Below, piece by piece: positions 290-6,367 of a DNA stretch of 7,441 nucleotides (positions are counted from its first letter, which is position 1; every line of letters begins with the position of its first letter). Source of the stretch: a virus (lineage: Duplodnaviria > Heunggongvirae > Uroviricota > Caudoviricetes); the IMG/VR virus record IMGVR_UViG_2713896784_000023; one strand, 5' to 3'. The notes under the pieces are model-generated. The model was not told where the DNA came from and did not search any database. It worked only from the letters and a program-made list of their open reading frames with translations. The position numbers and the translations under genes are program-made.

Positions 290-481
290 TCACTCACCTG
301 AGTTTCTTTCCAGCCAGCNNNNNNNNNNNNNNNNNNNNNNNNNNNNNNNNNNNNNNNNNNNNNNNNNNTCGGTTTTAAACGTTTTGCTTTTGGTATACGT
401 CATCGCGGTGAACGTGCCGTCCTGGTTGGGGAACACGCCACATACCAGAGATTCGCTGTTGCCAAGATCGATAGTATCCAT
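290..481 (-). CDS. Hypothetical small protein, about 63 aa (MDTIDLGNSESLVCGVFPNQDGTFTAMTYTKSKTFKT...WLERNSGE), interrupted by the N-run 319-368
   Basis: ATG at 481-479 with GAGG 5 nt upstream; first gene downstream of the pL-like promoter. The track's longer version (290-586) starts at a TTG inside the promoter region and is less plausible. About 17 residues are masked. Confidence 0.4.
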   Translation of the reverse strand: MDTIDLGNSESLVCGVFPNQDGTFTAMTYTKSKTFKTXXXXXXXXXXXXXXXXXXWLERNSGE

Positions 482-3418: not shown

Positions 3419-4057
3419 ATGGGAACCGTATTGCATGCACTGAAAGCGATGGGTAAAGCCAATTCTGTTGAACTGGCGGCGCGGCTTGATATCAGCCGTG
3501 AAGAAGTTCTCAACGAACTGTGGGAACTCAAAAAAAATGGCGTTGTTGATAAAACGGGTCACACCTGGTTTCTGGCTGTCGAAGGTGAATCCGGGGTAAC
3601 CGAAGGGCAGGCACTACAACCTGAAGCGCCGGATGTGGTAACCGAAGAGGTCNNNNNNNNNNNNNNNNNNNNNNNNNNNNNNNNNNNNNNNNNNNNNNNN
3701 NNTCGTTACTGCATGCCGGGCGATAATTTACCAGCAGAGCCGAAAGCCGCGCTGGTAACGGAAAATGATGGTAAAGCCTTTCCTCAGCCAGCAGGTGTTG
3801 CGTTACCAGTCCGGGAAGCGGAAACACAGGAAGAAATGAAAACAGAAATCGTGGAAGACATTGTGAAGTTACAGCCATCGGTCACCGAAACGAAAGCAGA
3901 TGACCTGATTCTACCATCGCTGCATGTGGCTAACCGAGAGCTGCGCCGGGCGAAAAGTGATGTGCAGAAGTGGGGGCGAGTCTGTGCCGCTCTGCGGGAA
4001 CTGAACAAACACAGGGATATTCTCCGGGATATTACCGCCACCAGAGAGCAGCAGTGA
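3419..4057 (+). CDS. Hypothetical phage protein with N-terminal winged-helix-like domain, about 212 aa, interrupted by the N-run 3653-3702
   Basis: ATG at 3419 preceded by GGAGG at 3407-3411; the track's upstream extension from 3353 is less likely. N-terminal [45 protein letters not shown] looks like a MarR-type winged helix; acidic middle; C-terminal basic helix. Reading frame is continuous across the N-run. Occupies the ren/nin position after P. Confidence 0.6.
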
Positions 4058-4382: not shown

Positions 4383-4466
4383 CGTAATTACTAATCCGGG
4401 GCTATATTCACCTCACGGTCGAGTTGACCGTCGGGATTGAGACCCCGGATAGAAACCGCGACAGAC

Positions 4467-4489
4467 ACACGCCGCGAGCGTGTTTTTTA
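4467..4489 (+). terminator. Rho-independent terminator (stem ACACGC / GCGTGT, 5-nt loop, T6 tract)
   Basis: ACACGC (4467-4472), loop CGCGA, GCGTGT (4478-4483), then TTTTTTATT; GC-rich perfect 6-bp stem ends the 4117-4382 gene pair. Confidence 0.6.
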
Positions 4490-4583
4490 TTGTCGTATGC
4501 ACGCGCACATCTGAATTATGGTGGGGCGTATAGGGGAGCTGAAAAGCTCGCCGGTTGGTTTCCCGGTAGTCTCAACCCTGTAC

Positions 4584-4649
4584 GTCTCACCACCCGACGA
4601 TTGAGACCTGACGGTGGTGATAGTTTAGAAACCACCCTAGGGTGTCGTT
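4584..4649 (+). promoter_or_regulatory. Structured 5' leader of the ORF6N-type gene with mutually exclusive hairpins
   Basis: Hairpin A: GTCTCA (4584-4589) with TGAGAC (4602-4607). Hairpin B: CACCACC (4588-4594) with GGTGGTG (4613-4619). Hairpin C: GGTGGT (4613-4618) with ACCACC (4631-4636), ending 2 nt before the AGGG Shine-Dalgarno (4639-4642); palindrome CCCTAGGG at 4635-4642. A, B and C share bases and cannot all form at once. Confidence 0.35.
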
Positions 4650-5198
4650 ATGACTACTCAAATCTCTGTTGAAACTCTTGTTGCTATTACTTACAACCAA
4701 ATCCCTGTAATTACCACTGAGTTGTTGGCGCATCTTTATGGTGCAGACGTTAAGAATATTCAAAACAACTTTGCAAGGAATGTAGGGCGCTTTCAGATTG
4801 GAAAACACTTTTTTAAGATCGAAGGTGAAGAGTTACGTGAATTGAAGCACAGACCATCTTTAAGTGGGTCTGTGAAAATCGCCCGTAACGTTCGTTCCCT
4901 CATCCTCTGGACAGAACGCGGAGCAGCCCGTCATGCAAAAATGCTCGAAACCGATCAGGCGTGGGAAGTATTCGAAAAACTCGAAGACAGTTACTTCAAC
5001 CAGTACGAGAAAGAGCGGGCTATGGGAAAAATGAATATCGATTTTCACCTGGCGATCCGTGACGATAAAACCGCCTTCATCCGAAGTTATGCGCCTGGCC
5101 AGCTGGTGACGGTTGAAGAAGCCCTGGCTTTGCTTAAATCGCGCGGATGGCTGGTAATGCCACGAGATGAACTGGCCGGAAAATTAATGGAGCTTTAA
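4650..5198 (+). CDS. ORF6N/Rha-type phage regulatory protein (antirepressor-like KilA-N superfamily), 182 aa
   Basis: N-terminal NQIPVITTELLAHLYGADVKNIQNNFARNVGRFQIGKHFFKIEGEELRELK matches the ORF6N/Rha-type DNA-binding domain pattern; C-terminal part uncharacterised. AGGG Shine-Dalgarno 7 nt before the ATG. Confidence 0.7.
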   Translation: MTTQISVETLVAITYNQIPVITTELLAHLYGADVKNIQNNFARNVGRFQIGKHFFKIEGEELRELKHRPSLSGSVKIARNVRSLILWTERGAARHAKMLETDQAWEVFEKLEDSYFNQYEKERAMGKMNIDFHLAIRDDKTAFIRSYAPGQLVTVEEALALLKSRGWLVMPRDELAGKLMEL

Positions 5199-5215
5199 CC
5201 GATTGAGTTAACCTT

Positions 5216-5235
5216 GATATGGGAATTCCCATATC
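5216..5235. repeat. Perfect 20-bp palindrome GATATGGGAATTCCCATATC
   Basis: Read directly from the sequence; exactly self-complementary; lies 18 bp after the ORF6N stop codon; not followed by a T-tract. Confidence 0.9.
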
Positions 5236-5312
5236 GGGAGAACATTACCATCGGGGATAAAATGATTTGCGGGGAAAGAAGAGTTAAGTAGAATTGCTGC
5301 GGGTGCTTGAGG

Positions 5313-5348
5313 CTGTCTGCCTCGGGCATGCCGCCGTAAGGCAGACAG
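5313..5348 (+). other. Strong hairpin: 10-bp perfect stem CTGTCTGCCT / AGGCAGACAG with 16-nt loop containing palindrome GGCATGCC
   Basis: Read directly from the sequence; no adjacent T-tract on either strand, so not a canonical terminator; part of a roughly 270-bp stretch with no ORF of 60 aa or more on either strand. Confidence 0.5.
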
Positions 5349-5469
5349 AGAAAAGCCCCAGTTAACATTACGCGTCTTGCAGGACGCTTAACATTAATCT
5401 GAGGCCAATTTCATGCTTTGCACATGTAGGTTAGCCTCTTACGTGCCGAAAGGCAAGGAGAAGCAGGCT

Positions 5470-5583
5470 ATGAAGCAGCAAANNNNNNNNNNNNNNNNNN
5501 NNNNNNNNNNNNNNNNNNNNNNNNNNNNNNNNACCGGCCAGACGGAGGTCGCTGTCTTCACAGCTTACGAACCTGAGGAGTAA
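5470..5583 (+). CDS. Candidate small ORF, about 37 aa (MKQQ...TGQTEVAVFTAYEPEE), interrupted by the N-run 5483-5532
   Basis: Consensus AAGGAG Shine-Dalgarno at 5455-5460, 9 nt before ATG 5470; the frame is continuous across the 50-N mask and stops at TAA 5581-5583; a 9-bp GAAA-tetraloop hairpin follows at 5591-5612. An in-frame upstream ATG at 5413 with GAGG would give about 56 aa. Coding status unproven. Confidence 0.3.
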   Translation: MKQQXXXXXXXXXXXXXXXXXTGQTEVAVFTAYEPEE

Positions 5584-5642
5584 GAGACCTGGCGAGGGAG
5601 AAATCCCTCGCCACCTCTGATGTGTCAGGCATCCTCAACGCA

Positions 5643-5672
5643 CCCGCACTTAACCTGCTTCGGCGGGTTTTG
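5643..5672 (+). terminator. Putative intrinsic terminator (stem CCCGC / GCGGG, long loop, TTTTGTTGTATT)
   Basis: CCCGC (5643-5647) and GCGGG (5663-5667) followed by a T-rich tract; lies between the convergent small ORF and the antitoxin gene end. Weak stem with long loop. Confidence 0.4.
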
Positions 5673-5685
5673 TTGTATTAGAATA

Positions 5686-6003
5686 TCAGGATATTACCTG
5701 GATCCCGTTTTTCTCGACAACTGAAAGAAGCCGAAGAGCTGCACCTCCCGGGCGTTTCACTCCTCGTTCCCAGTCTGATATCAGGTTTTTACTGACGTTG
5801 AGGTATCTGGCAAAAACAGGTTGAGACAGATGCTCTCGTTCTCGCAGTGCACGGATCCTTTCCGGAGACATTACCGGCGCAGGCTGAAGACAAGTTTCAT
5901 CGAATTCGCGCATAGTTTGTTTTGTGATTGCACCGATATCATGGAGTGACTCCATCATTTCATGTACAGATGCAAGTGCATCACTGCGGTAATTTTTACT
6001 CAT
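5686..6003 (-). CDS. XRE-family HTH antitoxin (HigA-like), 105 aa
   Basis: C-terminal Cro/C1-type HTH (LREREHLSQPVFARYLNVSKNLISDWERGVKRPGGAALRLL) with an N-terminal extension, as in antitoxins partnered with RelE-like toxins; ATG at 6003-6001 overlaps the upstream toxin stop by 8 nt; GGAGG 6 nt upstream. Confidence 0.85.
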   Translation of the reverse strand: MSKNYRSDALASVHEMMESLHDIGAITKQTMREFDETCLQPAPVMSPERIRALREREHLSQPVFARYLNVSKNLISDWERGVKRPGGAALRLLSVVEKNGIQVIS

Positions 6004-6367
6004 TGGGTACCTCCGTGAACTGGCCTTGTTGAATCAATTGTGCCAGCTGTTCATCAGTAAGATTGAGGACATGGGGAGCGGCTTTTCGAAAAGCATTTTC
6101 CTCTATAGCAGTGATATTCTCTCGTTCATTCTTTGCGTATGCGTAGATGAAAAAGGCTTTTTCTGCAACGCGGTAAAAAATTATTGTCCGGTAACCGCCT
6201 GATTTTCCGCCACCACTTCGGGCTAATCTTTGTTTAATGACACCACTACCCAAATTTGCGGATATGATCCCCTTATCGGCCTGCTCCACGATTTTGCGCA
6301 GCGATTTATCGGAAATCCGATGTTTTCGGGCGAAACGTTCAAACCAGGCGTTTTTGAAAATTCGCAT
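5996..6367 (-). CDS. RelE/ParE-superfamily type II toxin (HigB-like, toxin-first operon), 123 aa
   Basis: Motifs FKNAWFERFARKHRI, LGSGVIKQRLAR and GKSGGYRTIIFYR...FIYAYAKNERENI match the RelE-like toxin family that pairs with XRE antitoxins; GAGG Shine-Dalgarno upstream of ATG 6367-6365; orientation opposite to flanking phage genes. Confidence 0.85.
   Translation of the reverse strand: MRIFKNAWFERFARKHRISDKSLRKIVEQADKGIISANLGSGVIKQRLARSGGGKSGGYRTIIFYRVAEKAFFIYAYAKNERENITAIEENAFRKAAPHVLNLTDEQLAQLIQQGQFTEVPNE

What the first reader, a model, noticed from the sequence alone, without database searches (positions are those of the whole stretch)
5199..5685. About 490 bp of densely structured non-coding sequence with a possible small ORF, candidate novel RNA element
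No ORF of 60 aa or more on either strand, yet the stretch is packed with secondary-structure signals: a perfect 20-bp palindrome (5216-5235); a 10-bp perfect-stem hairpin (5313-5348); a hairpin GCGTC/GACGC (5372-5387) bracketed by 9-bp direct repeats TTAACATTA (5362-5370, 5388-5396); a TGCC-GAAA-GGCA tetraloop hairpin (5444-5455) partly occluding a consensus AAGGAG Shine-Dalgarno; a small ORF (5470-5583) whose stop is followed by a 9-bp GAAA-tetraloop hairpin (5591-5612); then a T-tract terminator. A TTGCGG -16- TAGAAT promoter-like pair (5267-5294) could drive it. This looks like a structured sRNA or cis-regulatory leader with a micro-protein, not spacer DNA, and it sits convergent to a toxin-antitoxin moron.
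Basis: seen in the sequence. Interest (0 to 1): 0.7.

Follow-up and report, generated by a model that had tools for sequence, protein, structure and literature searches.

The report
Intact hokD/sok type I toxin-antitoxin locus
The "structured non-coding block" is a complete, already well-known hok/sok-type toxin-antitoxin cassette (small membrane toxin HokD, its highly folded mRNA and an antisense RNA antidote) carried by an E. coli lambdoid prophage, so it is real but ordinary.

Summary
Window 5253-5680 is a hok/sok-family type I toxin-antitoxin cassette. Rfam RF01794 ("sok", in fact the hok-mRNA leader) matches 5301-5475 full length (117 bits; threshold 59). The small ORF is HokD: Pfam HOK_GEF 83 bits, and RefSeq annotates hokD at this spot in a 100% identical E. 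coli O157:H7 record. A 50-N mask in the window hides 92 real bases, so the ORF is 51 aa, or 70 aa from the in-frame mok start at 5413.

- the 5' tac element and its hairpin
- the ucb/mok-SD stem, which is also the Sok terminator on the other strand
- the hairpin before the hok SD, which carries the Sok -35
- the 3' protective hairpin, fbi and the terminator

Folding reproduces the published closed, open and metastable conformations, and homologous loci show compensatory changes.

The locus is 91% identical to the tested hokW-sokW of phage 933W/Sp5. Unlike K-12 hokD, it keeps the whole leader.

The 20-bp palindrome (5216-5235) lies outside the transcript. It looks like a relic of a KilA-N gene segment and is dispensable.

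Verdict: real, already known, low interest.

The parts
5199..5254 (.). Intergenic junction between the ORF6N gene stop (5196-5198) and the hok cassette. It contains the perfect 20-bp palindrome 5216-5235 inside a longer imperfect hairpin (outer arms CCGAT 5199-5203 / ATCGG 5250-5254). It is not part of the hok transcript.
   Evidence: fold -23 kcal/mol, z -3.3. Homology to 933W hokW starts only at about 5256. The palindrome is half deleted in strain JNE23-001. On the minus strand, 5188-5238 reads DMGIPISRLTQSVK, which resembles KilA-N proteins (DMGIPISELIQSFK).
5267..5294 (+). hok promoter: -35 TTGCGG (5267-5272), 16-nt spacer, -10 TAGAAT (5289-5294). The predicted transcription start is G5301.
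   Evidence: Read from the sequence. The block GTTAAGTAGAATTGCTGCGGGTGC is conserved in hokW and in 78 viral-contig cassettes. The R1-type homolog has TATAAT at the same distance from the conserved 5' end GGCGCUUGAGG. The Rfam model starts at 5301.
5301..5677 (+). Full-length hokD mRNA. It spans 377 window positions, which is 419 nt in reality because the N mask hides 42 extra bases.
5301..5312 (+). tac (translational activator) element, GGGUGCUUGAGG, at the mRNA 5' end.
   Evidence: Pairs with fbi in the full-length fold, with ucb in the 3'-truncated fold, and with 5319-5329 in nascent RNA.
5313..5348 (+). 5' hairpin with a 10-bp perfect stem, enclosed by the tac/ucb stem in the open conformation.
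   Evidence: Compensatory changes across homologs: one pair occurs as AU 11 / UA 9 / GC 2.
5353..5361 (+). ucb / anti-SD of mok (AAGCCCCAG).
   Evidence: Pairs with the mok SD in the full-length fold and with tac in the truncated fold.
5351..5421 (-). Sok-type antisense RNA (antitoxin), about 71 nt. It has a single-stranded 5' tail, a long stem-loop terminator and a UUUUC tail. The hairpin 5372-5387 and the TTAACATTA repeats form the upper part of this stem.
   Evidence: Position-for-position homologous to the annotated sokW misc_RNA of phage 933W. Fold -28 to -30 kcal/mol, z -4.8.
5428..5456 (-). Sok promoter on the minus strand: -35 TTGCCT (5456-5451), 17-nt spacer, -10 TAACCT (5433-5428).
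   Evidence: Read from the sequence. The homologous -10 is the site mutated to silence sokW in PMC8621323 (primers YO-421/422). The R1-type homolog has TTGCCT / TATCCT at the same place.
5401..5415 (+). mok translation start: SD GAGG (5401-5404) and ATG 5413. The mok frame runs in frame into hok (70 aa in total).
   Evidence: (aligned with the annotated mokW).
5434..5438 (+). dcb (downstream complementary box), GCCUC.
   Evidence: Pairs with the mok SD GAGGC (5401-5405) in all truncated-mRNA folds that end at L001 6512-6524.
5444..5460 (+). Small hairpin TGCC-GAAA-GGCA (5444-5455) abutting the hok SD AAGGAG (5455-5460).
   Evidence: The stem covaries among loci (TGCC/GGCA, GACC/GGTC, GCGC/GCGC, GGCC/GGTC); 46 of 77 loci form all 4 pairs.
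5470..5583 (+). hokD coding sequence. It is really 156 nt / 51 aa; window positions 5483-5532 are a mask. It includes the TACG motif at 5566-5569 (Tyr47 codon), the known TadA A-to-I editing site.
   Evidence: HOK_GEF 82.9 bits; PMC5630033.
5585..5618 (+). G+C-rich 3' hairpin (core 5591-5612, 9 bp, GAAA loop). This is the 3'-terminal stem-loop of the processed mRNA.
   Evidence: (I2). A homologous hairpin is present in K-12, 933W and R1-type loci. Its role in protecting against 3' exonucleases is taken from PMC9841398.
5626..5645 (+). fbi (fold-back inhibition) element, CAGGCAUCCUCAACGCACCC.
   Evidence: Complementary to 5301-5319 (I3 and I8). Covaries with tac across loci.
5652..5680 (+). Intrinsic terminator: stem 5652-5669 (AACCTGC-TTCG-GCGGGTT) followed by a T-rich tail.
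   Evidence: Shared with K-12 hokD.

Best explanation

The steps below are shown experimentally for R1 hok/sok, and in part for hokW-sokW. Here they are inferred from homology and predicted folds.

1. The weak promoter at 5267-5294 makes a ~419-nt mRNA from G5301.
2. While the RNA is nascent, the 5' tac element is trapped in a local metastable hairpin.
3. In the full-length RNA, tac (5301-5312) pairs with fbi (5633-5645) at the 3' end, and ucb (5353-5361) sequesters the mok Shine-Dalgarno (5401-5404). This RNA is neither translated nor bound by the antisense RNA.
4. Slow 3' trimming back to the hairpin at 5591-5612 removes fbi. tac then pairs with ucb, the mok SD pairs with dcb (5434-5438), and the RNA becomes open.
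5. The open form is normally caught by the short-lived antisense Sok RNA (minus strand ~5421->5351, from the promoter at 5456-5428) and destroyed by RNase III.
6. If Sok is no longer made (loss of the element, or transcription shut-off), translation of mok (ATG 5413) drives synthesis of the 51-aa membrane toxin HokD (5470-5583).

The 20-bp palindrome at 5216-5235 is outside this unit. It is most likely a relic of a KilA-N gene segment at a module junction.
For: - Rfam RF01794 matches 5301-5475 end to end, 117.3 bits against a threshold of 59, E = 5e-27.
- The unmasked ORF is HokD: HOK_GEF 82.9 bits against a threshold of 22.
- The region is 100% identical to RefSeq records that annotate hokD at this spot. 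Matching hok-type sequence occurs in 4718 of 5426 E. coli genomes; 148 of them contain this whole 601-nt stretch.
- It is 91% identical over window 5256-5655 to phage 933W, where mokW, hokW and the antisense sokW are annotated. Transferring those coordinates puts Sok at 5421->5351 and the mok ATG at 5413.
- hokW-sokW was shown experimentally to be a type I TA. Its probes and primers match this window exactly or nearly, including the Sok -10 that was mutated to silence sokW.
- The full-length fold pairs positions 1-12 with the 3' CCUCAA.GCACCC, z = -7.6.
- Truncated folds switch to tac/ucb plus mok-SD/dcb, and nascent folds give the metastable tac hairpin. This is the pathway described in PMC9841398.
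- Comparative support comes from 79 loci of other species. Loci with tac GGUGC have fbi GCACC (24 of 28), and loci with tac GGCGC have GCGCC (17 of 18).
- Compensatory pairs are seen in the 5' hairpin, the ucb/SD stem and the pre-SD hairpin.
- The Sok stem has G.U pairs where the sense strand has C.A mismatches.
Against: - No expression data were available for this locus. Transcription of either strand, 3' processing, RNase III cleavage and toxicity in the native context are all inferred.
- Chromosomal hok loci of E. coli were reported unable to mediate post-segregational killing (Pedersen & Gerdes 1999, as cited in bioRxiv 10.1101/2025.08.07.668861 and PMC5630033). Intact-looking elements therefore do not prove activity.
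- The consensus promoter scan called neither promoter.
- The shuffle controls of the covariation counts are inflated by shared ancestry of the sequences.
Confidence: 0.96

Rival explanations
1. A novel structured sRNA or cis-regulatory leader with a micro-protein, unrelated to known families.
For: The dense hairpins and the small ORF are real.
Against: - Full-length match to Rfam RF01794.
- Pfam HOK_GEF match.
- RefSeq hokD annotation on identical DNA.
- 91% identity to the annotated and tested hokW-sokW.
- Every hairpin inside the transcript corresponds to a named hok element.
Confidence: 0.01
2. The cassette is a structurally intact but functionally silent hok locus. Like the K-12 chromosomal hok loci, it would be carried passively by the prophage and contribute neither killing nor regulation.
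For: - Chromosomal hok loci were reported inactive for post-segregational killing.
- The K-12 copy of the same toxin gene has lost its whole leader, and homology there begins only at the hok SD. This shows that these loci do decay.
- Neither promoter is close to consensus.
Against: - All regulatory elements are present and mutually compatible: tac/fbi/ucb/dcb, mok SD and ATG, and the Sok promoter and terminator.
- The HokD coding sequence is toxic when expressed (bioRxiv 10.1101/2025.08.07.668861).
- The 91% identical prophage paralog hokW-sokW is active and promotes phage release (abstract).
Confidence: 0.25
3. The palindrome-containing segment 5199-5254 is a functional part of the unit. It could be an RNA hairpin that stops or insulates read-through from the ORF6N gene into the hok promoter, or a protein-binding operator.
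For: - The exact 20-mer lies at a fixed distance upstream of the hok 5' end in 78 of 120 viral contigs that contain it: 49 nt in 72 of them and 67 nt in 6.
- The longer hairpin folds at -23 kcal/mol, z -3.3.
- One outer-stem pair differs compensatorily between two variants, CCGAU/AUCGG against CCGGU/ACCGG.
- In the window, U.G pairs extend the stem on the plus strand only.
Against: - The viral contigs were retrieved by exact match, so conservation of the 20-mer is by construction.
- The palindrome is absent upstream of the functional hokW of 933W and half deleted in JNE23-001, whose hok cassette is otherwise intact.
- There is no U-tract after it and no Rfam match.
- The same 20-mer is ordinary coding sequence (DMGIPIS) in KilA-N genes, and its left flank in the window still resembles that gene. 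A recombination relic is therefore sufficient to explain it.
Confidence: 0.12

Closest known systems
hokW-sokW (mokW) of Stx2 phages 933W / Sakai prophage Sp5
   Same: - 91% nucleotide identity over window 5256-5655.
- Same promoter block and same 5' end.
- Same in-frame mok and same Sok position and length, including the 16-18-nt apical hairpin insertion in the Sok stem.
- Also in a lambdoid prophage.
- Experimentally a type I TA that depends on RNase III and Hfq and helps phage release.
   Different: - The toxin C-terminus differs (…VFTAYEPEE here, …VFVDYESEK in HokW).
- The variable segment around the mok start, which faces the Sok 5' tail, differs (AATTTCATGCTTTGC here, CAATCCATGCTGAAC in hokW).
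- The sequence after fbi differs: here it is the K-12-type terminator.
- 933W has no upstream palindrome.
hokD (relF) of the E. coli K-12 Qin prophage
   Same: The toxin protein is identical. The hok SD, coding sequence, 3' hairpin, fbi and terminator are nearly identical.
   Different: In K-12, homology starts only at the hok SD. The promoter, tac, ucb, mok start and the whole Sok gene are replaced by the 3' end of relE, with hokD lying downstream of relBE in the same orientation. The window has the complete, presumably ancestral, cassette, and an unrelated convergent RelE/HTH pair lies downstream.
hok/sok of plasmid R1 (compared here through an R1-type copy on Klebsiella plasmid pKPHS2)
   Same: - Same architecture and order of elements.
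- Conserved 5' end GG(C/U)GCUUGAGGCU, ucb AAAGCCCC and mok SD GAGGC.
- Conserved Sok promoter plus hok SD block.
- tac/fbi pairing with matching covariation.
- The folding pathway as described in PMC9841398.
   Different: - Only 41% toxin identity.
- In the R1 type, mok is in the +1 frame overlapping hok; here it is fused in frame.
- The R1-type 5' hairpin is longer and its Sok stem lacks the apical insertion.
- The R1 locus is on a plasmid rather than in a prophage.

Membership tests
[quoted passage not shown] | A small (~50 aa) hydrophobic toxin of the Hok/Gef family. | tested here: met
   The unmasked ORF is 51 aa. Pfam HOK_GEF scores 82.9 bits against a cut-off of 22. RefSeq annotates the identical DNA as HokD, WP_000813254.1.
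[quoted passage not shown] | A conserved, structured hok mRNA leader (Rfam RF01794). | tested here: met
   Window 5301-5475 on the plus strand matches model positions 1-157 of 157, 117.3 bits against a gathering score of 59. The family is named 'sok', but the match is on the hok-sense strand and ends at the hok AUG.
[quoted passage not shown] | An upstream mok reading frame with its own SD, overlapping or fused to hok. | tested here: met
   SD GAGG 5401-5404 and ATG 5413, in frame with hok (70 aa). It aligns with the annotated mokW. The in-frame arrangement is found in 38 of the unique loci examined. Translational coupling itself was not testable.
[quoted passage not shown] | A cis-encoded antisense Sok RNA gene, with promoter and terminator, opposite the mok translation-initiation region. 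| tested here: met
   - The site is homologous to the annotated sokW.
- Promoter TTGCCT-17-TAACCT lies on the minus strand.
- The -10 is homologous to the one mutated in PMC8621323.
- The RNA folds into a terminator stem-loop followed by a U-tail, z -4.8.

Transcription was not tested.
[quoted passage not shown] | Long-range 5'-3' tac/fbi pairing that closes the full-length mRNA. | tested here: met
   - 5301-5319 is complementary to 5626-5645 (I3 and I8).
- This pairing is in the minimum-free-energy and centroid folds.
- tac and fbi covary across 46 unique loci.
[quoted passage not shown] | Alternative pairings: a metastable tac hairpin in nascent RNA, and tac/ucb plus mok-SD/dcb after 3' truncation. 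| tested here: met
   Predicted folds of the 112-nt and 175-nt nascent RNAs, and of RNAs ending at L001 6512-6524, give these structures. They match the description in PMC9841398. This is in silico only.
[quoted passage not shown] | Functional behaviour: 3' processing, RNase III cleavage of the hok/Sok duplex, and killing when Sok decays. | not testable with these tools
   This needs Northern or RACE mapping and genetic assays. It has been shown for R1 and in part for the 91% identical hokW-sokW.
K-12-type truncated hokD (relBE-hokD operon) | hokD lacking its own leader and Sok gene, lying directly downstream of relE. | tested here: not met
   The window keeps the full leader upstream of the hok SD, and no relBE lies upstream. 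The K-12 alignment breaks at the hok SD.

The most novel reading that the evidence does not exclude
The ~56-nt palindrome-centred hairpin (5199-5254) found just upstream of many hokD/hokW-type promoters may be more than a KilA-N gene relic. It could be a functional insulator, processing element or protein-binding element that shields the hok promoter and 5' end from read-through transcription. Read-through would produce 5'-extended hok mRNAs that cannot fold correctly.
Probability: 0.1. Interest if true: 0.3.

Novelty: already known. Interest (0 to 1): 0.1.

Why it matters
It matters mainly as a correct annotation. The window contains a complete hokD cassette, with promoter, mok, Sok RNA gene and all the folding-switch elements. 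The laboratory K-12 copy has lost these elements. Public annotation marks only the hokD CDS, so the antisense RNA and mok are unannotated here. Such intact prophage copies are the natural material for asking what hokD does in prophages: maintenance, help with lysis as reported for hokW, or phage exclusion. Nothing about the element itself is new.

Tried and rejected
- The consensus promoter scan found no promoter on either strand. I kept the promoters on the basis of homology with R1-type and hokW loci, not on the scan.
- RNAalifold on a plain MAFFT alignment recovered only the 5' hairpin/tac stem. The other stems had to be specified by hand and counted. The 4-bp pre-SD hairpin was misregistered by an alignment gap and by my first regular expression, and was recounted.
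- My first pattern for fbi was too strict and missed most loci. It was replaced by duplex prediction and a simpler motif test.
- I considered that the TTAACATTA pair marks a direct-repeat insertion. I rejected this because the two copies pair with each other in the Sok stem.
- I considered the palindrome as an intrinsic terminator, as an operator for the neighbouring HTH antitoxin, and as a known RNA family. It has no U-tract, there is no second copy in the window at up to 3 mismatches, and there is no Rfam hit at E <= 10.
- I considered it an obligatory cassette boundary. I rejected this because 933W lacks it and JNE23-001 has half of it.
- The weak Rfam hit to ceN48 (24 bits against a threshold of 70) is noise.
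- A literature search for 'sokD' found nothing relevant.

Full report
**Observation**

I read 4900-6000 and listed all ORFs.
- the perfect 20-bp palindrome 5216-5235 (I6; no shuffle of the window gives one)
- the 10-bp stem 5313-5322/5339-5348
- GCGTC/GACGC at 5372-5387
- TTAACATTA at 5362-5370 and 5388-5396
- TGCC-GAAA-GGCA at 5444-5455, touching AAGGAG at 5455-5460
- ATG 5470 and stop 5581-5583
- the 9-bp GAAA hairpin 5591-5612
- a terminator-like stem with a T-rich tail

One caveat is important. The window contains three 50-N masks, and one of them (5483-5532) sits inside the small ORF. In the 100% identical genome record the masked stretch is 92 bases. The ORF is therefore really 51 codons, and the in-frame ORF from ATG 5413 is 70 codons. 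'No ORF of 60 aa or more' is an artefact of the mask.

**Identity**

A covariance-model scan of the whole window gives a full-length match of 5301-5475 (plus strand) to Rfam RF01794 'sok': 117.3 bits against a gathering score of 59, E = 5e-27. The match is on the hok-sense strand and runs to the hok AUG, so the family really models the hok mRNA leader, which contains the complement of Sok.

Megablast against 5,426 complete E. coli genomes finds 100% identical copies in 147 records, annotated 'hokD: type I toxin-antitoxin system toxin HokD'. Related sequences occur in 4,718 genomes. I fetched one identical record (E. coli O157:H7 PV15-279, locus L001) as an unmasked proxy.

Its ORF translates to MKQQKAMLIALIVICLTVIVTALVTRKDLCEVRIRTGQTEVAVFTAYEPEE. 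This scores 82.9 bits on Pfam HOK_GEF, against a cut-off of 22.

The neighbourhood is a lambdoid prophage early region: DicB, YdfC, CI/Cro-like, replication genes, an ORF6N gene, then hokD, a convergent RelE-family/HTH pair, RusA and an antiterminator.

**Anatomy**

By alignment with phage 933W (91% identity over window 5256-5655), where mokW, hokW and the antisense sokW are annotated features, the Sok-type RNA falls on the minus strand at 5421->5351 and the mok start at ATG 5413.

The Sok promoter reads -35 TTGCCT (5456-5451), 17 nt, -10 TAACCT (5433-5428). The homologous -10 is the site that Takada et al. mutated to silence sokW. Their hokW probe YO-597 and primer YO-350 match the window exactly (PMC8621323).

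The GCGTC/GACGC hairpin together with the TTAACATTA 'repeats' forms the upper part of the Sok terminator stem.

Folded as the minus-strand RNA, this is a 5' single-stranded tail, a long stem-loop and a U-tail: -28 to -30 kcal/mol, z = -4.8. The two TTAACATTA copies pair with each other through two G.U pairs on the Sok strand. On the sense strand those positions are C.A mismatches.

The hok promoter TTGCGG-16-TAGAAT (5267-5294) lies at the same distance from the conserved 5' end (GGGUGCUUGAGG, from G5301) as TATAAT does in an R1-type plasmid copy. The block is invariant in 78 phage-contig cassettes. The generic promoter scanner did not call either promoter.

**Folding switch**

The three predicted states are as follows.

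- *Full-length mRNA (419 nt).* It folds at -182.4 kcal/mol, z = -7.6 against shuffles. Positions 1-12 pair with CCUCAA.GCACCC near the 3' end (tac/fbi), and AAGCCCCAG (ucb) pairs with the mok SD.
- *3'-truncated mRNA.* RNAs cut just upstream of fbi refold so that tac pairs with ucb (1-8 with 53-59) and the mok SD GAGGC (5401-5405) pairs with GCCUC (5434-5438, dcb).
- *Nascent RNA (112-175 nt).* tac is trapped in a local hairpin (3-13 with 19-29).

These are the closed, open and metastable states described for R1 hok mRNA (PMC9841398). The 9-bp GAAA hairpin corresponds to the terminal stem-loop that protects the processed mRNA.

**Comparative test**

I collected 79 hok loci from other species' genomes. 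I analysed their leaders and 3' UTRs alongside L001 and the R1-type plasmid copy, the 933W hokW copy and two further E. coli hokD loci fetched separately.
- Among 46 unique loci with a recognisable tac, 24 of 28 with GGUGC have GCACC in the 3' UTR, and 17 of 18 with GGCGC have GCGCC.
- On a 24-sequence leader alignment, one pair of the 5' hairpin occurs as AU 11, UA 9 and GC 2. The ucb/SD stem has a pair split GC 11 / AU 10. Paired cells are 84-90%, against 22-55% when partners are slid.
- The little hairpin before the hok SD occurs as TGCC/GGCA, GACC/GGTC, GCGC/GCGC and GGCC/GGTC.

The shuffle controls overstate significance because the sequences are related. The pattern nevertheless agrees with the covariation known for this family.

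**Relation to K-12 hokD**

The K-12 Qin prophage has the same toxin, 3' hairpin, fbi and terminator. Homology starts only at the hok SD, and everything upstream is the end of relE. The window therefore carries the complete cassette that K-12 has lost. Whether it is active cannot be decided here. Three facts bear on it:
- chromosomal hok loci were reported inactive for post-segregational killing
- the HokD coding sequence is toxic when expressed
- the close paralog hokW-sokW is functional and promotes Sp5 release after mitomycin C

**The palindrome**

Positions 5199-5252 are not part of the hok transcript, and 933W has no counterpart. In strain JNE23-001 half of the palindrome is deleted, although the hok cassette is otherwise intact.

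In 78 of them a hok 5' end lies 49 nt (72 loci) or 67 nt (6 loci) downstream of the 20-mer. In others the 20-mer is ordinary coding sequence (DMGIPIS) inside KilA-N domain genes.

In the window, the minus strand of 5188-5238 still reads DMGIPISRLTQSVK, against DMGIPISELIQSFK in a phage KilA-N protein. The nucleotide match extends 15 nt beyond the palindrome. The simplest reading is a relic of a KilA-N gene segment at a module junction.

A functional hairpin is not excluded. The fold is -23 kcal/mol, z = -3.3, and one outer pair changes compensatorily between two variants. Rfam has nothing there.

**Verdict**

Novelty: already known. Interest: low.

Noticed in passing
window 4402-4597 (+), upstream of the ORF6N gene 4650-5198: Rfam hits above threshold to isrK (4415-4488, 52.4 bits against 50) and C4 antisense RNA (4514-4597, 70.5 bits against 45), plus a sub-threshold c4-a1b1 target hit (4402-4451). 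They lie directly upstream of an ORF6N-domain gene. From my own knowledge, this resembles a P1/P7 c4-ant or Gifsy-1 isrK-anrP type antirepressor control module.
   Followed up: no
window 319-368, 3653-3702, 5483-5532: There are three runs of exactly 50 N. The third replaces 92 real bases (L001 6334-6425), so coordinates and ORF lengths downstream of a mask are shortened. This made the hok ORF look like 37 codons instead of 51.
   Followed up: partly
window 5566-5569 (+): A TACG motif sits on the Tyr47 codon of hokD and lies in a predicted hairpin loop. This is the TadA A-to-I editing context reported to recode Tyr to Cys at this position in hokC, hokD and hokE (PMC5630033).
   Followed up: partly
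window 5188-5238 (-), and loci L095, L206: The 20-bp palindrome GATATGGGAATTCCCATATC is also coding sequence (DMGIPIS) in KilA-N domain genes of other phages. The window's copy with its left flank looks like a decayed fragment of such a gene, antisense to the 3' end of the ORF6N gene. The exact 20-mer lies 49 or 67 nt upstream of a hok 5' end in 78 of 120 viral contigs retrieved.
   Followed up: partly
loci L019, L084, L085 against window 5413-5472: The mok arrangement varies among otherwise similar hok loci:
- in-frame fusion to hok (this window; 38 unique loci)
- a long +1-frame overlap (R1 type)
- a short upstream ORF whose stop overlaps the hok start (CUAUGA; 5 loci)
   Followed up: partly
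window 5686-6367 (-): A convergent type II TA-like pair: a RelE-family toxin (PF06296, 158 bits; 5996-6367) and an HTH_3 protein (5686-6003). The HTH gene's stop is about 6-9 nt from the end of the hok terminator tail. The hok terminator does not look bidirectional.
   Followed up: no
loci L013, L023, L030, L069-L071: Hok loci identical or nearly identical to E. coli or R1 types turn up in assemblies labelled Veillonella, Acinetobacter, Xanthomonas, Streptomyces, Ferruginibacter and Oscillibacter. Most are on short contigs. Contamination of those assemblies is more likely than real hosts.
   Followed up: no
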